Virus record (IMG/VR): IMGVR_UViG_3300050343_000216
Coordinates: 1 to 64,000 of that record
Direction: 5' to 3' (one strand)
Origin: a virus
DNA length: 64,000 nt
A program made the translations under genes and the position numbers. Shown in pieces: positions 1-24,034 of the stretch. Each line of letters starts with the position of its first letter. Position 1 is the first letter of the stretch. The notes below the pieces were generated by a model that had not been told where the DNA came from, ran no database searches, and saw nothing but the letters and a program-made list of their open reading frames with translations.

Positions 1-379
1 TTTCTTCATCGACCACGGCTATATTGACGTAGAAGAAAATGTGGAATAAAATAGTAAATTGGTGGTTGACACTAATAAAAGAAGAGTTTGAACTTACAGT
101 ATATTTTCTAGGTAAAATAGTAGAAGATGATAACGGAACAAAGAAATAACTACAGACCCTCAAACTTACCGTTGTAAAGCAATTAAAAAACTAACACCAA
201 CTCATATGATATTTATTGACCTCGATGGGCGAAAGCACGAGGTTAAAGTCGTTAATCCAGTAGGATATGAGCTAACAAAGATTTATTAGAGTCCGATCTC
301 TATAACTCGGTAACTAAGAACAGAGAATGCCGAAAGGGTTTCATAGTTGCGTACCGAATGGGCGCATAGGAGAAACAAA

Positions 380-799
380 ATGACAAAGCAAATGAACATT
401 AGTGATTTTCACAAATTCTTTTTAGGGTTCGATCGTATTGACCCTGATTTCTTTTCAAATGCCCCTATGACAGGGTATCCTCGATATAACGTATTGAAAG
501 TAGGAACAGAAGGCTATCGTGTAGAAGTCGCTGTACCTGGCTGGGAAAAGGACGATATCGAGATTACATTTGATAAGAATGAACTTCGTATTGAAGGTGT
601 AGCAAAGCAAGAAGTTTCAGACGAAGAAGAGTTTGTATATAAAGGTTTGAGTGGTAAAACTTTTACCAGAGTATTTAAAGTAGGATCAAACATTAAACTT
701 GATACTGCATACATGAAGAACGGACTTCTGTGTGTAGAGCTATATCAAGAGGTGCCCGAGGAGTCGAAGGCAAAGGTGGTAGAAATACATGATGCCTGA
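380..799 (+). CDS. hsp20: Small heat-shock protein (Hsp20/IbpA family)
   Basis: Alpha-crystallin motifs YPRYNV, YRVEVAVPGW, F.R.F, NGLL. ATG at 380 follows an AGGAGA RBS; the ORF track starts at 347. Confidence 0.93.
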   Translation: MTKQMNISDFHKFFLGFDRIDPDFFSNAPMTGYPRYNVLKVGTEGYRVEVAVPGWEKDDIEITFDKNELRIEGVAKQEVSDEEEFVYKGLSGKTFTRVFKVGSNIKLDTAYMKNGLLCVELYQEVPEESKAKVVEIHDA

Positions 800-899
800 G
801 ACCAAAAAACTCTTTCGACCTTTAAATACTTATGGAATCTATCTATTAAGTCTGTGGACGACCTGCACGTTAGTATTGTGCGTGGCATCCCTAGTATGA
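792..899 (+). CDS. Micro-ORF (35 aa) with one hydrophobic segment
   Basis: Read manually as MPETKKLFRPLNTYGIYLLSLWTTCTLVLCVASLV; overlaps the hsp20 stop and ends just before a terminator. Confidence 0.45.
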   Translation: MPETKKLFRPLNTYGIYLLSLWTTCTLVLCVASLV

Positions 900-906
900 C
901 TAGTCC

Positions 907-935
907 CTGCCCGAAGGAAACTTTGGGCAGTTTTT
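907..935 (+). terminator. Rho-independent terminator
   Basis: CTGCCCGAAG-GAAA-CTTTGGGCAG followed by TTTTT. Confidence 0.8.
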
Positions 936-945
936 AGGAACATAA

Positions 946-1338
946 ATGCCCTATTTAATTATTTTAATGCTTGTAGGTTCAATGGGCGGTGGAGCATTGT
1001 GGTACTATAAAGATACCCAAAGCACTATCGCAACACTACGAGATAACAATAGTAAACTTATGATGGTTGCAGAAACAAATCAAGAAACCATCAATTCAAT
1101 GGCTCGTGATTATCAATTAGCTCAAGAAAATATGTTAGTATTACAAGAAAGAGCTAAAGAAGCTGAAGAGTACCAAGATGAGTTAGCTTCTAAATTACGC
1201 CGTCACGACCTTACAGCCCTGACCTTGCAAAAACCAGGTCTTATCGAAAAGAGAGTTAATAATGCTACAGCTAAAATCTTTGATCAGCTCGAAGCCGATT
1301 CTGGCAAGCAGCCTACTATTACCGATAGCCCTAAGTAG
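946..1338 (+). CDS. Putative inner-membrane spanin (Rz-like)
   Basis: N-terminal TM helix, then a coiled coil with KPGLIEKRVN; overlaps a downstream lipoprotein gene. Confidence 0.7.
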   Translation: MPYLIILMLVGSMGGGALWYYKDTQSTIATLRDNNSKLMMVAETNQETINSMARDYQLAQENMLVLQERAKEAEEYQDELASKLRRHDLTALTLQKPGLIEKRVNNATAKIFDQLEADSGKQPTITDSPK

Positions 1339-1708
1339 TGGCTGTGCAAGTATTGAACCAGAAGTAGTTGTAAAGACGGATTATGTTGTAAAAGACATTC
1401 CGATACAACCACAACCAAAACCCCTTAATCTACATAGGGTTAAGTTCTATGCTGTAACACCTGAGAATATCGACGACTTTCTATTAAAGTTCGAGGAAGA
1501 AGCAGGTGTTAATGTATTCTTTGCTTTAAGTGTACCAGACTATGAGAATATGTCACTAAACGTAGCAGAGTTACGAAGATACATCAACCAACAAAAAGCA
1601 GTAATTTTATACTATGAAGACAGTATAAATACAATGATTCGAGAGACTCCAGAGGATAGTGAAGAAGTAGTCCAAGAAGGAACTCTCAATAAGCTATTAG
1701 AGTGGTAA
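1262..1708 (+). CDS. Putative outer-membrane spanin lipoprotein (Rz1-like)
   Basis: Lipobox LSSGC, Pro-rich segment, overlap with the i-spanin. Confidence 0.7.
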   Translation: MLQLKSLISSKPILASSLLLPIALSSGCASIEPEVVVKTDYVVKDIPIQPQPKPLNLHRVKFYAVTPENIDDFLLKFEEEAGVNVFFALSVPDYENMSLNVAELRRYINQQKAVILYYEDSINTMIRETPEDSEEVVQEGTLNKLLEW

Positions 1709-1712
1709 TACT

Positions 1713-1802
1713 ATGGAACTGATTGGAATTTTATGTATAATGATGTTGCCTCTTATAGCAGGTGGGATAACTTTTATATTAAGTGCAAAGGTAACAGAAT
1801 GA
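1713..1802 (+). CDS. Micro-ORF (29 aa) single-TM peptide
   Basis: MELIGILCIMMLPLIAGGITFILSAKVTE; ATGA overlap with the next micro-ORF. Confidence 0.5.
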   Translation: MELIGILCIMMLPLIAGGITFILSAKVTE

Positions 1803-1891
1803 CAGTGGCAGATGGTTTTTTAATTTTTTGGATGGTAATAGTACCAATTATGATGGCAGCAATGGCATATGGCGACAGAAAACCATCTTAA
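1799..1891 (+). CDS. Micro-ORF (30 aa) single-TM peptide
   Basis: MTVADGFLIFWMVIVPIMMAAMAYGDRKPS; translationally coupled to the previous ORF. Confidence 0.5.
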   Translation: MTVADGFLIFWMVIVPIMMAAMAYGDRKPS

Positions 1892-2024
1892 GGAGGTAGA
1901 TAAAACGTACCTCCAACATTTGTTAGGGGCCTGGAAAGTAGCATTTATACTACTTGTACACGGGCTTCTACCAAATGTATGGACTCATACAGCCAGTGAG
2001 ATGCTTAATGATGACACAGACTGA
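1869..2024 (+). CDS. Small His-containing membrane protein, DUF6356-like (51 aa)
   Basis: MATENHLKEVDKTYLQHLLGAWKVAFILLVHGLLPNVWTHTASEMLNDDTD; pattern HL..V..TY.QH...H..LP...TAS. Missed by the ORF track. Confidence 0.6.
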   Translation: MATENHLKEVDKTYLQHLLGAWKVAFILLVHGLLPNVWTHTASEMLNDDTD

Positions 2025-2589
2025 CTACTTTGCAAAGTCTATGACAAAGTTCTTTCGTTTCTTTGCAGATACATTCTTCGCAAAACGATACGGACATAGA
2101 GCAGTTGTTCTAGAAACAGTAGCAGGCGTTCCGGGAATGATAGCAGGAATGTTAGTGCATTTAAAAAGTTTAAGAACACATAAGAGAGGCTATGGGCCTA
2201 TCATACGAAGACTACTTGCAGAAGCAGAAAATGAGCGTATGCACCTTATGTTTTTTATCGAGATCGTAGAACCCAGCAAGCTGGAGCGGGGTCTCATCAT
2301 ACTGGCACAATTTTTATTCTGGCACTTTTACTTAGTAATGTATCTAATCTCTCCTCGCACAGCTCATATGATGACACATTATTTTGAGGAGGAAGCAGTA
2401 AAAAGTTACACAGAGTATTTAAGTTTAATAGAAAGTGGGCAAATTGAAAATGTCCCTGCACCAACTCTAGCCATAGAATACTACGGACTAGATGCAGATG
2501 CAAACCTATCTACTATGATAGAACGTATTCGCGCTGATGAAGCACATCACAGCAAAGTAAATTTGGAGTATGCCAATGTACTCAGATAA
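2008..2589 (+). CDS. aox: Alternative oxidase (ubiquinol oxidase, di-iron carboxylate)
   Basis: All four AOX iron-binding motifs: LETVA, NERMHL, FEEEA, RADEAHH. Likely start ATG 2008/2011. Confidence 0.95.
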   Translation: MMTQTDYFAKSMTKFFRFFADTFFAKRYGHRAVVLETVAGVPGMIAGMLVHLKSLRTHKRGYGPIIRRLLAEAENERMHLMFFIEIVEPSKLERGLIILAQFLFWHFYLVMYLISPRTAHMMTHYFEEEAVKSYTEYLSLIESGQIENVPAPTLAIEYYGLDADANLSTMIERIRADEAHHSKVNLEYANVLR

Positions 2590-2977
2590 GGTACTAGATC
2601 ATTATGAAAATCCCAGGAATGTCGGAAAACTTGACAAAAATGATGAAGATGTCGGAACGGGCCTCACAGGTGCTCCAGCATGTGGAGATGTCATGCAACT
2701 TCAAATCAGAGTATCGCCCGACGGAGTTATTGAAGATGCTAAATTCAAGACTTACGGATGCGGCAGTGCTATTGCTTCTTCATCACTACTCACTGAATGG
2801 GTTCGAGGAAAGTCCCTTGACGAGGCAGGAGAAATCAGCAATGTCCAAATTGCTCAAGAACTATCACTCCCGCCTGTAAAGATACATTGTAGCGTGCTGG
2901 CCGAAGACGCGATTAAAGCCGCAATTGCGGACTATAGGAGTAAACATGAAAGGAACTACTATGAAAAACAGAACTAA
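2570..2977 (+). CDS. iscU: Fe-S cluster scaffold IscU
   Basis: YSDKVLDHYENPRNVG, GAPACGDVM, FKTYGCGSAIAS, LPPVKIHCS: three Cys ligands plus the HscA-binding LPPVK motif. Confidence 0.97.
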   Translation: MPMYSDKVLDHYENPRNVGKLDKNDEDVGTGLTGAPACGDVMQLQIRVSPDGVIEDAKFKTYGCGSAIASSSLLTEWVRGKSLDEAGEISNVQIAQELSLPPVKIHCSVLAEDAIKAAIADYRSKHERNYYEKQN

Positions 2978-3686
2978 ACTCGGCGCTCTTGCGCTGTCCA
3001 CCGCTCTCGCCTGTGCGTTCGCATCGACCGCTCATGCAGGGGAATGGTCCGCAAATGCTTCGATGACCAGTAATTACATCTGGCGAGGGCTTACACAGAC
3101 AGAAAATGAAGCAGCCGTGCAGGGCGGTATTGATTACGCCTCGGACAGCGGCTTTTACATTGGCACCTGGGCTTCCAATGTGAACTATGGCCCGTCCGAT
3201 GTTTACTCTTACGAGCACGACGTATACGCAGGGTTTGCTTTTGATACCGGCGCGGTTAGCTGGGATGTGGGTTACCTCTATTACAACTACGACAAAGAAG
3301 CCAACTTCGACTTTGGCGAGGTTTATGTGGGCGCGGGTATTGGTGATTTCAGTGCAAAGTTTAACGTGCTGGCCAATACCGAAGCAGACGAGGCTGAGGG
3401 GCAGGATTTTGGGTTCGGCGAAGCCTATTACCTCTCATTGGACTATGGTTTTGAAGTCGGCGACGGTGTCGGTATTGGCCTGCACGTAGGACATCACGAT
3501 GGCGATTTTGCTGAAGCTTTTAACGGCAATGCTGAGGGTTATTACGATTACAACGTAACGGTCTCAAAGGGCGGCTTCACTTTTATGATTTCCGATACTG
3601 ATGTAAAAGGTGGAGCTGCAGAGGGTGGATACGACAACGATCAGATCAAATTTGTCGTCTCATACGCTGTTGATATCGCGCTCTGA
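2961..3686 (+). CDS. TorF-family (TIGR02001-like) putative outer-membrane porin
   Basis: Signal peptide ending AHA; SNYIWRGLTQT..AVQGGIDY..SGFYIGTWASNV; alternating beta strands; visibly higher GC than its neighbours. Confidence 0.85.
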   Translation: MKNRTKLGALALSTALACAFASTAHAGEWSANASMTSNYIWRGLTQTENEAAVQGGIDYASDSGFYIGTWASNVNYGPSDVYSYEHDVYAGFAFDTGAVSWDVGYLYYNYDKEANFDFGEVYVGAGIGDFSAKFNVLANTEADEAEGQDFGFGEAYYLSLDYGFEVGDGVGIGLHVGHHDGDFAEAFNGNAEGYYDYNVTVSKGGFTFMISDTDVKGGAAEGGYDNDQIKFVVSYAVDIAL

Positions 3687-3730
3687 AGGTGTGCGGTGAG
3701 AGCTTTAATATATAAGGCTAGGAAGATAGA

Positions 3731-4171
3731 ATGAATCGTGAAAGATTGTATGAAGAAATTAAAGCAGATGAAGGAGAAGTTCTTGAAATTTATAACGACC
3801 ACTTGGGCTACCCTACTTTCGGTGTCGGACACTTGGTCACGACAGAAGATGAAGAGCATGGAAAGCCTACCGGCACTCCCATTACGGCACAACGATCCAG
3901 GGAGTGCTTCGATAACGATGTTGTCACTGCCATTAAGGACTGCGAACGATTATACGGACAATGGCACAATTGGCCGGAAGAGGTGCAATTAGTAGTAGTA
4001 AATATGGCATTTAATCTGGGCGCTACGCGTCTTGCAAAATTTGTGAATTTTAAAAATATGCTGTCTCAAGGAAAGTGGAAAGAGGCAGCAGTAGAAGGTC
4101 GAGACTCTTTATGGTATCGACAAGTTACAAACCGAGCCGAGCGGCTCATGCGGAGATTAGAAGAAGTTTAG
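3731..4171 (+). CDS. Endolysin, T4-lysozyme-like (GH24)
   Basis: DEG...IYNDHLGYPTFGVGHL; NMAFNLG; DSLWYRQVTNRAERL. Confidence 0.9.
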   Translation: MNRERLYEEIKADEGEVLEIYNDHLGYPTFGVGHLVTTEDEEHGKPTGTPITAQRSRECFDNDVVTAIKDCERLYGQWHNWPEEVQLVVVNMAFNLGATRLAKFVNFKNMLSQGKWKEAAVEGRDSLWYRQVTNRAERLMRRLEEV

Positions 4172-4188
4172 TCTCCTTAGGAGAGAGA

Positions 4189-4593
4189 ATGAAGTATTTA
4201 CTAGGTCTGTTGGCTATTCTACCTATTTGTGTAGCTGCAGGAACTGTAATTAATTATGATGACGGCTCTACTTTAACACTTGAAGATAGCGAAAAGATTC
4301 ATGTAACAAAAGATACGCTATACCGTCAACAGAACTATAACAACGGAAGGACTATTCAATTCAAAGTATTCCCTGAAACTACTCGACGGGATTATGTAGA
4401 AATTGATAACGGTACAGATGACGACATGACCGTTGGTTCTCACGAATGGTGTAAAGCCTATGTACCTTGGTCAGAGGGTCTAACGTTTACTCAAGTCGCT
4501 TGGCAACGAGCCTGTGATACTAACAATAACGGCGTTTATGGCTGTGGGGACACAGGATACGATGCCTCTGATGATGCAGGAGTCTGCAACTAA
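4189..4593 (+). CDS. Exported protein of unknown function
   Basis: Signal peptide MKYLLGLLAILPICVAA after AGGAGAG; C-terminal Cys and a DTNNNG Ca-binding-like motif. Confidence 0.7.
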   Translation: MKYLLGLLAILPICVAAGTVINYDDGSTLTLEDSEKIHVTKDTLYRQQNYNNGRTIQFKVFPETTRRDYVEIDNGTDDDMTVGSHEWCKAYVPWSEGLTFTQVAWQRACDTNNNGVYGCGDTGYDASDDAGVCN

Positions 4594-13434: not shown

Positions 13435-15717
13435 ATGACGAGCCCAAGGGTTGCTCTAATAGAAACCAAACCAAGCAGAACCAACTTTAAAACAGAATTT
13501 GACCACGCTTTTGACTTTGACCAGTATCAGTTATGTTCTGATCCTACTCTTAAAAAAGTACTCAAGCGAGACTGCGATATTCAGATATGAACCCAGACTG
13601 TATGACTGGATTATTCTTAGTAGGCTCTGACGCTATGAAGTATTACACTAAAATTACTTCTGTTACAGAGTACTCAGGCAAAAAAGTAGAAAGCAAGTAC
13701 TTACCTAGTAATCAATCCAGCTATGCTGGCATTTAAGCCAGAAGCTAAAGAATACTTGGGAGTCTTCAAAAGAAAGTATTCATTGGGTACATCAAAGGCG
13801 AAATCGAAGAGGTAGTATTATAGATGATAGTATTGCATTCGGTATTCAAGATACGGAGGAAGCAAATGAATTTATTCGGGCTGCAATCGCAGACATGAAT
13901 GTAAGTATATTGCATTCGATTCTGAGACTACTGGACTCTACCCTCGTGATGGGTATATGCTTGGTATCTCTTTCTTATGAATAAAAGGCGCTTACATTGA
14001 TACAGATTGTTTTGATGCGAGAACTGAACAACTGCTACAACAATTGTTTGATGAAAAGACAGTAGTATTTCACAATGCAAAGTTTGATATGGCATTCTTT
14101 GAGTACCACTTTAACTTTAAGTTTCCAAACTTTGAAGACACCATGTTGCTCCATTACCTCATAGACGAGAATCCTGGAGGGCACGGTCTCAAAGCAGTTA
14201 CTTTCTTTAAAGTTTACTCCTTATGGAGATTACGAAAAGCCAATGTATGATTGGATTGACCAGTACAGAAAAGAAACTGGGTATTTTGAAGGGAGACTTT
14301 CAATGGGAGTCAATTCCTTTTGATGTAATGAAAACATATGCAGCTATGGATGCTTTATGTACTTTTTCTTAATTTACGAGAAGTTTGTAAAAATCAAGCA
14401 AAACAAAAACTGGCTTGGGTATACGATAATATTCTTATTCCAGGAACTAGATTTCTAACAGATACACAAGATAATGGTGTGCCTTTCGATAGAATACGTT
14501 TTAAAAGTCTCAAGTGCTAATGCAGCATGATATCGATGAAGCTATTGAAACTATATGAAAATCGAAAAATACGGAAGTTTGAAGAGATAAAAATGGAAGG
14601 ACTTTTAATCCGAATAGTACTGTGCAACTTCGTAAGCTTGTTATTTGATATGCTTCGGACTTCAACCTACTGGCAAAAAGACAGGTACAGGTGCAGACTC
14701 TACAGATGCGGAAGTGCTGAAAGAGCTCTCAGTTCAGAATGTACCGAAACTCATTCTGGATATTCGTCAAAAATCTAAGATTAAGAATACTTATCTTGAT
14801 AAGATTATACCTCAACTGGATCGAGATTCTAGCGTTTAAGGACAAACTTTAATCTGCATGGTACTACTTCTGGACGTCTTATCTAGTGGTAAGTTAAATA
14901 TGCAGCAGTTGCCTCGAGAGACAATCCTATTGTAAAAGGATGTATTAAAGCAGCAGAAGGTCATAAAATTGTTGCAATGGATTTAACTACAGCAGAGGTA
15001 TATGTTGCTGCAAAACTTGCGAACGATGAAGCACTGATGAATGTATTTCGTAGCGGTGGTAACTTTCACAGTACGATTGCGAACAACAGTATTCAAACTT
15101 CCTTGCGATGTAGAGAGAAGTCGCAGAGCTATACTCCGACACAACGTCAAGCTGCAAAAGCAGTAACATTTGGTATTATGTATGGCGCTGGGCCGAAAAG
15201 ATTAGTGAACAAGTTACTAAAGATTCTGGAACCTACTTTAGCCAGCAAGAGGCAAAAGAAGTTATTGATGACTATTTTAAGTCTTTCCACAAACTAAAAA
15301 GTGGATTGATGATAATCAGAAGTTTATTGAACAAAATGGGTTTATATATAGTTTCTTTGGCCGTAAAAGGAGATTACCTAATGTTCAAAGACCGACGCAG
15401 GCATCAAGAGTCATAGCATTCGTTCTGGTCTTAATTTTTTGGTTCAGTCTGCTGCTTCTGATATCAACCTTCTAGGAGCTATTGATATGGGAGAGTTTAT
15501 AAAGTCTCAAGGCATGAAGGCAAGAATCTTTGCACTTGTACATGACTCAATCCTTGCAGAAGTACCAGACGACGAGATAGACTTTTATTCAGAAGTTTTG
15601 GAAAAGTTTATACAATTAGACAGAGGAATCTCTATATCAGGCGCTCCAGTAGGGTGTGACTTTGAAGTTGGAGAGGACTACTCTATGGGTAAGTTTGAAA
15701 AAATGTATGAACAGTGA
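13435..15717 (+). CDS. pol: T5-like family A DNA polymerase, broken by many indels (probably sequence errors)
   Basis: Fragments show FDSETTGL (ExoI), HNAKFD, GTTSGR, DLTTAEV (motif A), RQAAKAVTFGIMYG (motif B) and VHDS (motif C); T5-like N-terminus. Confidence 0.9.
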
Positions 15718-16217: not shown

Positions 16218-16877
16218 ATGGCTAGAAAAAGAAAGACTCTTGCGGGAGCAAACTTAGATTTACAAGAGATCGAACCACTTACTAAAAATCAAGTAGTGGC
16301 TTTCGAAAGTACTAAAAACCTAATGCTGCACGGAGTAGCAGGAACTGGAAAAACGTTTATATCTTCTTACTTAGCGTTCGATGATATGACCAAAGGTTTA
16401 TACGAAAAACTAGTAATTATAAGAAGTGCTGTACCTACTAGGGACATAGGATTCTTACCTGGAAATGAAAAAGAGAAGGCTTCAGTCTATGAAGAACCTT
16501 ACAAAGATATTTGTATCGAACTTTTCCAGCGAGGAGACGCATACGAGATACTCAAAACAAAAGGATTAGTACATTTTATGACTACTTCTTTTATTCGTGG
16601 AGTTACATTGCGAAATGCAATAATTCTAATTGATGAGTGTCAAAACATGAGTTTTCACGAACTAGACTCTATTATCACTAGAATGGGTCAAGGGTGTAGA
16701 GTTATCTTTTGTGGTGACTTTCGCCAAGCAGATTTAGCAAAAAATGGTTTGAAAGACTTTGTACGAGTCTTGAAAGCTATGGACGTATTTGATTTTATTG
16801 ACTTCGATATAAAAGATATTGTACGAAGTGAGTTTGTCAAACAATATATAACCGCAAAAACAGATTTAGGATTATGA
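16218..16877 (+). CDS. phoH: PhoH family ATPase
   Basis: GVAGTGKT, IGFLPG, FIRGVTL, DECQN, GDFRQAD, DIVRS. Confidence 0.95.
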   Translation: MARKRKTLAGANLDLQEIEPLTKNQVVAFESTKNLMLHGVAGTGKTFISSYLAFDDMTKGLYEKLVIIRSAVPTRDIGFLPGNEKEKASVYEEPYKDICIELFQRGDAYEILKTKGLVHFMTTSFIRGVTLRNAIILIDECQNMSFHELDSIITRMGQGCRVIFCGDFRQADLAKNGLKDFVRVLKAMDVFDFIDFDIKDIVRSEFVKQYITAKTDLGL

Positions 16878-22273: not shown

Positions 22274-24034
22274 ATGCAGAAATTAGATTATAAAAGAGAT
22301 CGCTATCTATCAGAGTTTAGTATAAAAACTCTACAAGATAGATATTTGTAGACGGGGAAGGTTCCCCACAGAAGCCTTTGCAAGAGCAGCAAAAGCTTTT
22401 GCAGATGATGATGCACACGCACAAAGATTATATGACTATGCTAGTAAGCTATGGTTTATGTTTTCTACTCCTATTTTCTCGAATGGTGGAACTAACTCGT
22501 GGCCTACCTATTAGTTGTTTTCTTAACTATGTAGATGATAGCAGAGAAGGTATTACAGCCACTACACAGAAAATGCTTTTCTTTCTTCTGTTGGGGGGGG
22601 TCGGTGGATGTTGGCGATATACGTTCGGAGTGTAGGCTCGAAAACGAGCAATGGCTCCGAAAGTACTGGAGTAATTCCTTTCTGAAAGTAGTAGATGCAG
22701 AGATGCTTGCATTCTCTCAGGGTGTAACTCGAAGAGGAAGCTATGCAGCATATCTTGATATGATCTCATCCCGAAATTGAAGAGTTTTTGGATGTTCGTA
22801 AGCCTACTGGTGGAGATATTAATCGAAAAGTCTACTAATCTTCATCATGGCGTTGTTATTTCAGATGATTTTATGGAACTTATTGAAAACGCAACAAAGA
22901 TAGAAGGATTTGATGATAGTTGGGATCTTATTGATCCGCACTCAGGAGAAGTTAACTAAAACTGTATCAGCAAAAACACTTTGGGTAAAACTTATACAAA
23001 ATCGTGTTGAAACTGGCGAACCTTACATTATGTTTAAAGATACTGTACAAGAAGCTCTACCTGAGTGTCAAAAAGACCTAGGCTTACAAGTACATCACTC
23101 TAATCTTATGTAGTGAGATTACTCTTCCTACAGACAAAGACCGAACAGCAGTATGTTGTTTATCTAGTGTAAATTTAGAAGAGTATGATGAGTGGAAAAA
23201 TGATGATACATTTTATTCCTGATCTAGTTCGAATGCTTGACAATGTATTACTCATTTTATTAACAACGCTCCAGATGAGCTTCAGAAAGCTAGTTATAGT
23301 GCAGATGAGAGAAAGAAGTATTGGCTTAGGTGCAATGGGGTTTCATGCCTACTTACAACGACACAACATTCCGTTTGAATCGGCAATGGCGAAAGGACGA
23401 AATATGGCTATGTTCTGGCACATTAAATCGGAGGCAGAAACTGCAACTCGACAGCTTGCTGGAGCGAGGAGAATGCCCTGATGCAGAAGGTATGGTATGC
23501 GTAACGCTCATCTGTTGGCTGTTGCTCCTAATGCTTCTTCTAGTATTATCTGTGGCAACACTAGTCCTAGTATTGAGCCTTACCGTGCTAATGCATACAC
23601 AAAAAACTAAAAGCGGTCCTCTTTACAAAAGAACGAGTATCTTGGAAGATATTCTCCGAGATCTAGGTATGGATACTGATGAAGTATGGAAGAGTATTGT
23701 TACAAACGGCGGATCAGTACAACATCTTAGATTTCCTAGATGATTGGACAAAAGATGTATTTAAAACAGCAGTAGAGATTGACCAGAGATGGGTTATTGA
23801 ATGGCAGCAGATAGACAAGAACATATTTGCCAAAGTCAGTCTTTAAATGTCTTTTTCCCAGCAAATGTATCAAAGCAAGAACTTCACGCTATTCATATGA
23901 TGGCCTGGAAAAAGAAAGTAAAAACTTTATACTATCTACGAAGCGAAGCGTATAAGAGAGCAGAAACAGTATCGGACGAAGCACTACGACAGCGTATTTT
24001 TGATTCTATATGACGAAATGAATGTCTAGCTTGT
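22274..24034 (+). CDS. nrdA: Ribonucleotide reductase class Ia alpha subunit (frameshifted)
   Basis: PISCFL, VETGEPY, VCCLSSVN, RSIGLGAMG, APNASSS, QSQSLN, KTLYYLRS, terminal CLAC. Confidence 0.9.

What the first reader, a model, noticed from the sequence alone, without database searches (positions are those of the whole stretch)
2008..2589. Phage-encoded true alternative oxidase, not PTOX
Seen: intact LETVA, NERMHL, FEEEA and RADEAHH motifs in a compact protein of about 193 aa with phage-like AT-rich codons. Known: cyanophages carry PTOX, whereas AOX is a cyanide-resistant, haem-free ubiquinol:O2 oxidoreductase found in some marine proteobacteria. Inference: an auxiliary metabolic gene that gives a heterotroph an iron-cheap electron sink during infection. 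The AT-rich composition suggests long residence in the phage.
Basis: partly seen in the sequence, partly recalled or inferred. Interest (0 to 1): 0.72.

Follow-up and report, generated by a model that had tools for sequence, protein, structure and literature searches.

The report
Phage-borne respiratory alternative oxidase gene
An uncultured marine T5-like phage carries an intact, conserved gene for a true respiratory alternative oxidase (not the PTOX of cyanophages), joined to an iron-sulfur scaffold gene, which suggests that phages of heterotrophic sea bacteria adjust host respiration much as cyanophages adjust photosynthesis.

Summary
Window 2008-2589 (+) is an intact 193-aa ORF carrying LETVAGVPG, NERMHL, FEEEA and RADEAHH.

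It is AOX-type, not PTOX or COQ7:
- Pfam AOX scores 221 bits, against 40-44 bits for cyanophage PTOX.
- It is 56% identical to a mitochondrial AOX (E 4e-75), but 23% (E 0.2) to P-SSM4 PTOX.
- All six iron ligands and the essential Tyr map onto trypanosome AOX.
- The AlphaFold model overlays that structure (TM 0.9).

The carrier is a real phage. It is an IMG/VR record with terminase, portal, tape measure, spanins and endolysin, and its TerL is 47-49% identical to T5-like phages. The host is probably a marine gammaproteobacterium, possibly Halieaceae.

The gene sits in a DUF6356-AOX-IscU block between the spanin and endolysin genes. That block is conserved in 14 contigs from 13 other samples, with dN/dS 0.03-0.09. 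The AOX falls in a phage-only clade (100/100) that is at most 71% identical to any cellular AOX.

IMG/VR holds at least 151 AOX-bearing viral contigs, reflecting several independent captures. RNA-library contigs cover the gene.

No paper found describes AOX in non-cyanophages. This scan has noted phage AOX before on other DNA (34 notes, at least 27 genomes).

The proposed function, a non-pumping quinol oxidase acting as a redox valve, is inferred and untested.

The parts
2008..2589 (+). aox: 193-aa alternative oxidase, a di-iron, AOX-type ubiquinol oxidase. An alternative start at 1975 would give 204 aa.
   Evidence: Pfam AOX 221 bits. 56% identical to C. merolae mitochondrial AOX. E 4e-36 to T. 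brucei AOX, with all six Fe ligands and Y220 aligned. AF2 model TM 0.9 to 3VV9. dN/dS 0.03-0.09.
1869..2024 (+). 51-aa DUF6356 membrane micro-protein whose stop overlaps the aox start. It travels with aox only in this phage clade.
   Evidence: Pfam DUF6356 39.9 bits, cut-off 24.4. 63-100% identical copies lie just upstream of aox in L003-L013 and L067. None lies upstream of aox in 80 cellular loci.
2570..2977 (+). iscU: Fe-S cluster assembly scaffold. Its start overlaps the aox stop by 14-20 nt, so translational coupling is likely.
   Evidence: TIGR01999 IscU 220 bits, cut-off 192. Pfam NifU_N. PHROG 8429. The three Cys, the His-Cys pair and LPPVK are visible in the translation. The same overlap with aox is kept in 14 related contigs.
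2925..3686 (+). TorF-family outer-membrane porin gene: a GC-rich, recently acquired, variably present insert after iscU. It is not part of the conserved aox-iscU core.
   Evidence: TIGR02001 149 bits. GC 0.50 and GC3 0.52, an outlier. Present only in the window, L003, L014 and L067. A TorF-less joint 2947->3749 appears in a contig of run X1. Best named relatives are Halieaceae at 70-78%.
946..1708 (+). Rz-like i-spanin (946-1338) and o-spanin (1262-1708): phage lysis genes flanking the insert on the left.
   Evidence: PHROG 739 and 812, Rz-like spanins.
3731..4171 (+). Phage lysozyme/endolysin flanking the insert on the right.
   Evidence: Pfam Phage_lysozyme. PHROG 7 and 13211. It follows iscU directly in the TorF-less relatives.
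347..799 (+). Hsp20 small heat-shock protein, a conserved neighbour in the same phage lineage.
   Evidence: Pfam HSP20. PHROG 432. Present in relatives at 50-100% identity.

Best explanation
The ORF encodes a functional AOX-type, monotopic di-iron ubiquinol:O2 oxidoreductase. It is carried as an auxiliary metabolic gene by a T5-like siphovirus of a marine gammaproteobacterium, possibly an OM60/NOR5 (Halieaceae) photoheterotroph.

Shown here:
- Family membership, an intact active site and the AOX fold.
- A phage carrier.
- Conservation of the gene in the lineage, and purifying selection on it.

Inferred:
- During infection the enzyme inserts into the cytoplasmic face of the host inner membrane and passes electrons from ubiquinol directly to O2 without pumping protons.
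- Quinol oxidation therefore continues whatever the state of the cytochrome bc1/terminal-oxidase branch or the membrane potential. NADH and succinate dehydrogenases keep turning over, NAD+ is regenerated for nucleotide and energy metabolism, and over-reduction of the quinone pool and the resulting ROS are limited.
- The translationally coupled IscU supplies Fe-S scaffold capacity for the Fe-S-rich dehydrogenases that feed the pool, or repairs clusters damaged by oxidative stress.
- The phage copy supplements or replaces a host AOX, as cyanophage PTOX and psbA do for photosynthetic electron flow.
For: Identity:
- Pfam AOX 221 bits.
- 52-57% identical to plant and red-algal mitochondrial AOX.
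- Trypanosome AOX E 4e-36. E36/E76/H79/E127/E178/H181 and Y134 align to E123/E162/H165/E213/E266/H269 and Y220. R31, L35, A39, E129 and A130 align to the quinol-pocket residues R118, L122, A126, E215 and A216. All are invariant in 31 homologues.
- AF2 pLDDT 88.9; TM 0.88-0.90 and rmsd 2.1 A to 3VV9/9KUN.

Phage carrier:
- IMG/VR virus record.
- TerL, portal, major tail protein, tape measure, spanins and endolysin.
- TerL 47-49% identical to T5-like phages.

Selection and conservation:
- The DUF6356-aox-iscU block is kept in 14 contigs from 13 other samples.
- dN/dS 0.03-0.09 at dS up to ~1.1.
- Phage-only clade with 100/100 support.

Link to IscU:
- No IscU lies within 5 kb of aox in any of 80 cellular loci. 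A second phage group (L040-L045) has a 49%-identical IscU 3.4 kb from its aox.

Host:
- The nearest cellular AOX (64-71%) are in Halieaceae, K189A, Porticoccaceae and SAR86.
- TorF is 70-78% identical to Luminiphilus, HTCC2080 and Congregibacter.

Expression hint:
- Contigs from marine RNA libraries of three studies cover aox and bridge aox-iscU.
Against: - No enzymatic or infection data exist; every physiological step is inferred.
- RNA-library contigs cannot exclude carried-over DNA and give no strand or timing.
- AOX is a di-iron carboxylate protein and does not itself need IscU, so the pairing could be a shared regulatory or insertion hot spot rather than a functional module.
- The host is not identified. 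Five AOX-bearing gammaproteobacterial genomes tested have only 35-40% TorF homologues.
- The protein lacks the long N-terminal dimerisation arm of eukaryotic AOX, although all close bacterial homologues also lack it (lengths 187-199 aa).
- The record has frameshifted PolA and RNR genes, so this particular assembly is imperfect or the genome is partly decayed.
Confidence: 0.7

Rival explanations
1. Iron and haem economy. The phage AOX, with two Fe and no haem or copper, replaces the iron- and haem-expensive bc1/cbb3 branch in iron-limited seawater. Respiration continues when the host can no longer renew its cytochromes.
For: AOX chemistry is established knowledge. A co-encoded IscU points to iron handling. 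Earlier scan notes report other phage aox genes next to Fe-S or haem genes (unchecked leads). The hosts are oligotrophic marine bacteria.
Against: The likely hosts already encode an AOX, so the phage adds dosage, not a new capability. IscU raises Fe-S demand rather than sparing iron. A lytic cycle is short compared with cytochrome turnover. No iron-responsive element was found, and the promoter scan was not above chance.
Confidence: 0.15
2. Protection against respiratory poisons or oxidative stress. A cyanide-, NO- and sulfide-insensitive oxidase keeps respiration going and scavenges O2 when the haem-copper oxidases are inhibited, including by host abortive-infection responses. IscU repairs damaged clusters.
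For: Vibrio fischeri AOX relieves NO stress (Dunn 2018, cited in PMC12801897). The neighbours Hsp20 and IscU are stress and repair functions.
Against: There is no evidence for NO or sulfide exposure in the surface-ocean samples holding these phages. This reading overlaps heavily with the best explanation and cannot be separated from it by sequence.
Confidence: 0.1
3. Lysis-timing device. The gene sits between the spanin and endolysin genes. AOX diverts electrons from proton-pumping oxidases, lowers the membrane potential late in infection, and so helps trigger the holin.
For: The block lies inside the lysis cassette, at 946-4171. Small membrane ORFs, including DUF6356, precede it.
Against: In other T5-like relatives aox lies next to DnaB, not the lysis genes (L018, L037, L039, L041, L051). 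In T4-like phage C48C1 it lies between replication genes. The position is therefore lineage-specific.
Confidence: 0.03
4. It is not a working phage gene: a PTOX or COQ7 relative, a decaying passenger, or host DNA joined to a phage contig by mis-assembly.
For: The record has frameshifted PolA and RNR genes. COQ7 gives a weak sub-threshold Pfam hit of 21.2 bits.
Against: Cyanophage PTOX is 23% identical with E 0.2. The COQ7 fold match has TM 0.44-0.46, against 0.9 for AOX. The same gene order, with phage genes on both sides, occurs in 14 independent contigs. dN/dS is 0.03-0.09. Composition equals that of the phage.
Confidence: 0.02

Closest known systems
Bacterial and mitochondrial alternative oxidase (AOX; Pfam PF01786; structure: Trypanosoma brucei TAO, PDB 3VV9), and in particular the compact ~190-aa AOX of marine Gammaproteobacteria (SAR86, Porticoccaceae/SAR92, Halieaceae, K189A)
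   Same: Same family, motifs, iron ligands, quinol-pocket residues and predicted fold. It is 64-71% identical to the marine gammaproteobacterial proteins and 52-57% to mitochondrial AOX.
   Different: It is encoded by a phage. It forms a phage-only clade not nested in any sampled cellular family. It is flanked by DUF6356 and a translationally coupled IscU, neither of which accompanies aox in 80 cellular loci. It lacks the N-terminal arm of the eukaryotic enzymes.
Cyanophage and prasinovirus PTOX (plastoquinol terminal oxidase), the known virus-encoded member of the AOX superfamily (e.g. P-SSM4, Syn9; PMC12584671, PMC5332604)
   Same: Both are virus-borne di-iron quinol oxidases, presumed to act as an electron safety valve for an over-reduced quinone pool during infection.
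   Different: It belongs to a different subfamily: 23% identity and E 0.2 to P-SSM4 PTOX; Pfam AOX 221 bits against 40-44; a very long branch in the tree. The presumed substrate is ubiquinol in a respiratory chain, not plastoquinol in thylakoids. The host is heterotrophic or photoheterotrophic, and the record has no psbA.
Phage C48C1 (OQ984149), the only deposited phage genome in INPHARED with a relative
   Same: It carries an AOX-type gene 64.7% identical to this one, and also lacks psbA.
   Different: It is a T4-like 156-kb myovirus labelled Kyanoviridae. The gene is annotated 'hypothetical protein' and lies after tRNA-Thr, between the sliding-clamp and clamp-loader genes, with no adjacent IscU.
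Phage NifU/IscU-like Fe-S assembly genes (PHROG 8429)
   Same: The neighbouring gene matches this known phage auxiliary family.
   Different: Here it is overlapped with, and co-inherited with, an AOX gene.

Membership tests
Alternative oxidase (AOX subfamily of PF01786) | Match to the family profile above the curated threshold | tested here: met
   221 bits against a cut-off of 22.7; profile positions 19-216 of 216 are covered.
Alternative oxidase (AOX subfamily of PF01786) | Six di-iron ligands (E, ExxH, E, ExxH) plus the essential Tyr (TAO Y220) | tested here: met
   E36, E76, H79, E127, E178, H181 and Y134 align with TAO E123, E162, H165, E213, E266, H269 and Y220. All are invariant in alignment A1. 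The ligands are also kept in all phage-clade copies; the last motif varies as RADEAHH, RADEQNH or RADEQKH but keeps ExxH.
Alternative oxidase (AOX subfamily of PF01786) | Closer to respiratory AOX than to PTOX | tested here: met
   56% identity and E 4e-75 to mitochondrial AOX, against 23% and E 0.2 to cyanophage PTOX. No PTOX appears among the 120 best longer homologues. PTOX falls on a branch of length >4 in both trees.
Alternative oxidase (AOX subfamily of PF01786) | Four-helix-bundle di-iron core with amphipathic membrane-binding helices | tested here: met
   AF2 model pLDDT 88.9, six long helices. TM 0.88-0.90 and rmsd ~2.1 A to TAO structures. This is a prediction, not an experiment.
Alternative oxidase (AOX subfamily of PF01786) | Ubiquinol:O2 oxidoreductase activity, cyanide-resistant and SHAM/ascofuranone-sensitive | not testable with these tools
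   Needs expression and oxygen-uptake assays.
Plastoquinol terminal oxidase (PTOX) | PTOX-type sequence (as in P-SSM4 and Syn9: LEVIARAP, NETEHL, ...DELxH) and a carrier infecting oxygenic phototrophs | tested here: not met
   The motifs differ. Pairwise E is 0.2. No psbA/psbD is in the record, while the P-SSM4 control is positive.
COQ7 / other ferritin-like di-iron proteins | Profile match above threshold and matching fold | tested here: not met
   Pfam COQ7 21.2 bits, below the 23.5 cut-off. Foldseek TM is 0.44-0.46 to human COQ7, against 0.9 to AOX.
Phage auxiliary metabolic gene | Lies inside a bona fide phage genome with phage genes on both sides | tested here: met
   Spanins lie upstream and endolysin downstream. 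TerL, portal, tail and replication genes are in the same record.
Phage auxiliary metabolic gene | Cellular metabolic homologues exist, and the gene is retained under purifying selection in the phage lineage | tested here: met
   Cellular homologues at 64-71%. 14 syntenic phage contigs. dN/dS 0.03-0.09.
Phage auxiliary metabolic gene | Expressed during infection and changes host metabolism | tested here: inconclusive
   Contigs of marine RNA libraries from three studies cover aox (X1 1101-2258, X4 2230-2484, X3 2479-2899). DNA carry-over cannot be excluded, and no infection system exists.

The most novel reading that the evidence does not exclude
Phage AOX, here hard-wired to IscU, is the respiratory counterpart of cyanophage PTOX and is tailored to photoheterotrophic hosts. 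The gammaproteobacterial lineages holding the closest AOX genes (OM60/NOR5, SAR92, SAR86) use bacteriochlorophyll or proteorhodopsin (established knowledge). Light-driven proton motive force back-pressures the proton-pumping respiratory chain and over-reduces the ubiquinone pool. A non-electrogenic phage oxidase would uncouple carbon oxidation from that back-pressure, letting the infected cell burn substrate for nucleotide synthesis in the light. Repeated independent capture by T5-like, T4-like and other marine phages would make respiratory-chain rewiring a general viral strategy in the surface ocean.
Probability: 0.25. Interest if true: 0.8.

Novelty: new variant of a known kind. Interest (0 to 1): 0.6.

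Why it matters
Virus-encoded quinol oxidases are known only as PTOX in viruses of oxygenic phototrophs, where they are a standard example of viral control of photosynthetic electron flow.

A true respiratory AOX extends that idea to the respiratory chain of heterotrophic and photoheterotrophic bacteria, which process much of the ocean's dissolved organic carbon. The gene is conserved, under purifying selection, probably transcribed, and present on at least 151 IMG/VR contigs of several phage types.

If the enzyme works as inferred, infected cells would respire with a lower ATP yield per O2 consumed. That would change the growth efficiency and oxygen demand attributed to these populations.

The gene is small and easy to test in E. 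coli, and the probable host group has cultured members.

Tried and rejected
- **PTOX and COQ7 readings:** rejected.
- **Chimeric contig or host DNA:** rejected on synteny in independent assemblies.
- **Composition as a clock:** AOX GC follows its genome in every group, and a ~40% GC donor cannot be excluded. Composition alone does not date the transfer; I used the tree and dS instead.
- **Promoter/terminator scan of 1-4400:** counts equal to shuffles, so no transcription-unit claim is made beyond the gene overlaps.
- **First tree:** the two OYE-AOX fusion rows were trimmed to their last 200 residues and sit on branches of length ~10. They are uninformative and were left out of the second tree. 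P0122 (sea anemone) was also dropped as a long branch.
- **Careful tree:** it did not finish and was completed. The bootstrap had not fully settled (correlation 0.986). Deep backbone support is weak, and rooting on the very distant PTOX is unreliable. I make no claim about the donor lineage beyond 'marine gammaproteobacterial AOX group, nearest Halieaceae/K189A with weak support'.
- **Host test with TorF:** five AOX-bearing genomes gave only 35-40% homologues. The Halieaceae suggestion rests on the named hits.
- **Literature:** nine full-text searches found no report of AOX in phages of heterotrophs. The Dunn 2023 review of bacterial AOX is not held, so a mention there cannot be excluded.
- **'C48C1' and 'K17893' searches:** irrelevant hits only.
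- **Databases without a match:** no tRNAs in the window; no PHROG or NCBIfam family matches the AOX.
Full report
**1. The observation**

Window 2008-2589 (+) is an uninterrupted ORF of 193 codons. It matches Pfam AOX (PF01786) at E 1.9e-65, 221 bits against a cut-off of 22.7. The only other hit is a sub-threshold COQ7 match of 21.2 bits against 23.5.

An upstream in-frame ATG at 1975 would give 204 aa, the form called in near-identical database proteins. Homologues of other clades align only from about residue 5, so 2008 or 2011 is the more likely start.

**2. AOX, not PTOX**

I fetched the PTOX genes of Prochlorococcus phage P-SSM4 and Synechococcus phage Syn9 from their deposited genomes.
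- They score only 40-44 bits on the same Pfam model.
- Their motifs are different (LEVIARAP, NETEHL, ...DELxH).
- P-SSM4 PTOX aligns to the window protein at 23% identity with a pairwise E of 0.2.

The window protein is instead close to respiratory AOX.
- It is 56% identical over 189 residues to the mitochondrial AOX of Cyanidioschyzon merolae (E 4e-75).
- It is 52-57% identical to plant mitochondrial AOX. No PTOX appears among the best 120 longer homologues.
- Against the PDB, the only sequence hits are trypanosome AOX (E 4e-36).

Using that alignment and the numbering of chain 3vv9_A, residues map as follows:

| Window protein | TAO | Role |
|---|---|---|
| E36, E76, H79, E127, E178, H181 | E123, E162, H165, E213, E266, H269 | di-iron ligands |
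| Y134 | Y220 | essential Tyr |
| R31, L35, A39, E129, A130 | R118, L122, A126, E215, A216 | quinol/inhibitor pocket |

The roles of the TAO residues are from my knowledge of the TAO structure paper; the mapping itself is. All these positions are invariant in an alignment of 31 phage, bacterial and eukaryotic homologues.

An AlphaFold2 model (pLDDT 88.9, pTM 0.84) superposes on TAO structures with TM 0.88-0.90 and rmsd about 2.1 A. The next fold, human COQ7, reaches only TM 0.44-0.46.

In maximum-likelihood trees the two PTOX rows sit on a branch longer than 4 substitutions per site, away from everything else.

**3. The carrier is a phage**

The window is the first 64 kb of a 75.3-kb linear IMG/VR virus record with an estimated completeness of 78%.

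The minus-strand half encodes large terminase, portal, major tail protein, tape measure and tail fibres. The plus-strand half encodes DnaB helicase, primase, NAD ligase, helicases and PhoH. The terminase is 47-49% identical to those of T5-like phages of Pectobacterium, Serratia, Vibrio, Yersinia, Salmonella and Escherichia.

aox lies between an Rz/Rz1 spanin pair (946-1708) and an endolysin (3731-4171), so phage genes flank it on both sides. There is no psbA or psbD.

**4. The local module and its conservation**

The gene order is: Hsp20, spanins, small membrane ORFs, a 51-aa DUF6356 protein, aox, iscU, TorF porin, endolysin.
- The DUF6356 stop overlaps the aox start.
- iscU passes the equivalog threshold (TIGR01999) and has the three Cys, His-Cys and LPPVK. 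Its start overlaps the aox stop.

A tblastn survey of all fetched loci shows the DUF6356-aox-iscU-endolysin order in 14 IMG/VR contigs from 13 other samples, with AOX identity of 85-100%. TorF is present in only four of the contigs, including the window's. TorF is a compositional outlier (GC 0.50, GC3 0.52). A contig of run X1 joins 2947 directly to 3749, which is the TorF-less form. TorF is therefore a recent add-on, and aox-iscU is the conserved core.

Pairwise Nei-Gojobori estimates between the window's aox and its clade members give dN/dS of 0.03-0.09, with dS up to about 1.1. That is strong purifying selection over a long period inside phages.

None of 80 cellular aox loci has an IscU within 5 kb or a DUF6356 gene upstream. 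A second group of related phages (L040-L045) has a 49%-identical IscU 3.4 kb from its aox. The AOX-IscU association is thus a phage feature, not inherited from the donor.

**5. Relatives and history**

- The protein database holds thousands of compact (187-199 aa) relatives, mostly from marine metagenomes.
- In species-representative genomes, the best matches (64-71%) are all marine Gammaproteobacteria: SAR86, Porticoccaceae/SAR92, Halieaceae and the K189A clade. The one exception is a 'Saprospirales' MAG contig that is the same 20,286-bp sequence as an IMG/VR viral contig.
- IMG/VR has at least 151 contigs with a relative.
- Some are clearly other T5-like phages with aox beside DnaB. Others carry homologues of the window's spanins and lysozyme.
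- The only deposited phage genome with a relative is T4-like phage C48C1. There the gene is labelled hypothetical, and psbA is also absent.

In the careful tree:
- The window's clade is phage-only with 100/100 support.
- It joins four more viral sequences (90/93).
- It then groups, with weak support, with Halieaceae and K189A sequences.
- The viral label needs 6-8 changes, no bootstrap tree has a single viral origin, and well-supported branches force at least three.

Marine phages have therefore captured, or exchanged, aox several times.

AOX GC equals that of its carrier in every group:

| Group | AOX GC | Flank GC |
|---|---|---|
| Window's phage clade | 0.41 | 0.41 |
| Halieaceae | 0.48 | 0.52 |
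| Porticoccaceae | 0.40 | 0.41 |
| SAR86 | 0.34 | 0.34 |

The window's aox is thus fully adapted to phage composition, in contrast to TorF. Composition alone cannot date the capture; the phage-only clade and saturated dS do that better.

**6. Host**

Spanins imply a diderm host. The terminase relatives all infect Gammaproteobacteria. The recently acquired TorF has its best named relatives (70-78%) in Luminiphilus syltensis NOR5-1B, HTCC2080, Congregibacter and Halieaceae/Cellvibrionales MAGs. The cellular AOX sequences most similar to the window's (70-71%) are also Halieaceae.

Five AOX-bearing genomes that I tested have only distant TorF homologues. The host assignment to OM60/NOR5-type Halieaceae therefore remains a moderate-confidence inference.

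**7. Expression**

Twenty RNA or RNA-labelled runs from 11 marine studies share words with 1700-4200. I laid four of them. Contigs from RNA libraries of three studies cover:
- 1101-2258: o-spanin through the first part of aox, 98% identical.
- 2230-2484: inside aox, one mismatch.
- 2479-2899: aox end through iscU, no mismatch.

These are assembled contigs. They show presence in RNA libraries, not strand, level, or freedom from DNA.

**8. Mechanism**

Shown: an intact AOX active site and fold, a phage carrier, and long-term purifying selection.

Inferred from established AOX biochemistry: the enzyme oxidises ubiquinol and reduces O2 to water on the cytoplasmic face of the membrane without translocating protons. 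It bypasses the bc1 complex and haem-copper oxidases, and it is insensitive to cyanide, NO and sulfide.

In an infected cell this would have three effects:
- Keep the quinone pool oxidised.
- Keep NADH and succinate dehydrogenases running.
- Limit ROS, at the cost of ATP yield.

IscU would sustain Fe-S clusters in those dehydrogenases. Because the probable hosts already have an AOX, the phage copy most likely maintains or boosts an existing valve. This is the same logic as phage psbA or PTOX.

Variants of the benefit cannot be separated by sequence, and I list them as rivals: iron economy, resistance to inhibitors, and lysis timing. The lysis-timing idea is weakened because aox sits at other genomic positions in other phage lineages.

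**9. Novelty**

In the searchable literature, viral 'alternative oxidases' are the PTOX of cyanophages and prasinoviruses (PMC12584671, PMC5332604). A recent cyanomyovirus paper uses the label AOX for one gene of a cyanophage (PMC12801897). I found no description of a respiratory AOX in phages of heterotrophs. PHROGs has no family for it. The one deposited phage copy is unannotated.

This scan has noted phage AOX before on other DNA: 34 notes in at least 27 genomes, some next to Fe-S or cytochrome genes. I treat those as leads that agree with my IMG/VR count, not as evidence.

I class the finding as a new variant of a known kind: a virus-borne quinol oxidase of the respiratory subfamily, in heterotroph phages, coupled to IscU.

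**10. Caveats**

- Function is untested.
- The host is inferred.
- The deep tree backbone is weak.
- This particular record has PolA and RNR genes broken over several frames. That points to assembly errors or decay elsewhere in the contig, although the aox region is reproduced exactly in independent assemblies.

Noticed in passing
window 13500-15700 and 22800-23950: The family-A DNA polymerase and the ribonucleotide reductase large subunit are split over several reading frames with many stops of all three kinds (11 stops inside the best PolA match; six RNR fragments). This suggests frameshift errors in the assembly or decaying genes, not an alternative genetic code.
   Followed up: partly
window 2925-3686: A GC-rich TorF-family porin gene (GC 0.50 against 0.40 for the phage) is present in only 4 of the contigs carrying the conserved aox block. 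A TorF-less junction (2947->3749) occurs in a contig of run X1. Its best named relatives are Halieaceae (Luminiphilus 78%, HTCC2080 76%), which gives a host clue and marks a recent moron.
   Followed up: partly
proteins P0124-P0134, P0149 (marine metagenomes): Fusion proteins of about 585 aa combine an Old Yellow Enzyme / NEM-reductase domain (PF00724) with an AOX domain 55-62% identical to the phage AOX. This could be a self-contained NAD(P)H-to-O2 oxidase. Other fusions also appear, with MsrB (PF01641) and with DUF (PF11697).
   Followed up: no
L083 (PAPS01000029.1) = L015 (IMGVR_UViG_2786546713_000002): The 20,286-bp contig that gives the label 'Saprospirales bacterium oxidase' to an AOX is the same sequence as an IMG/VR viral contig. 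The Bacteroidota attribution of this AOX is therefore probably a binning artefact.
   Followed up: partly
L001 / OQ984149.1 26279-26830: Phage C48C1 (156 kb, T4-like, filed under Kyanoviridae) has an AOX-type gene annotated 'hypothetical protein', right after tRNA-Thr and between the sliding-clamp and clamp-loader genes. It lacks psbA/psbD, so it is probably not a cyanophage.
   Followed up: partly
L018, L037, L039, L041, L051; L040-L045; L061, L068, L069, L074, L076, L079: Other T5-like or related marine phage contigs carry aox at different positions: directly after DnaB, 3.4 kb upstream of a 49%-identical IscU, or downstream of a lysozyme-spanin cassette. Their AOX sequences fall in other parts of the tree, near Porticoccaceae or Halieaceae, which indicates separate captures.
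   Followed up: partly
window 16218-16877 and 347-799: PhoH-like ATPase and Hsp20, both common marine-phage auxiliary genes, occur in the same genome as AOX and IscU.
   Followed up: no
window 1713-2024: A chain of overlapping micro-ORFs precedes aox. The last one (51 aa) is a bona fide DUF6356 member and is co-inherited with aox only in this phage clade. Its role is unknown; it could be a membrane partner or a holin-like protein.
   Followed up: partly
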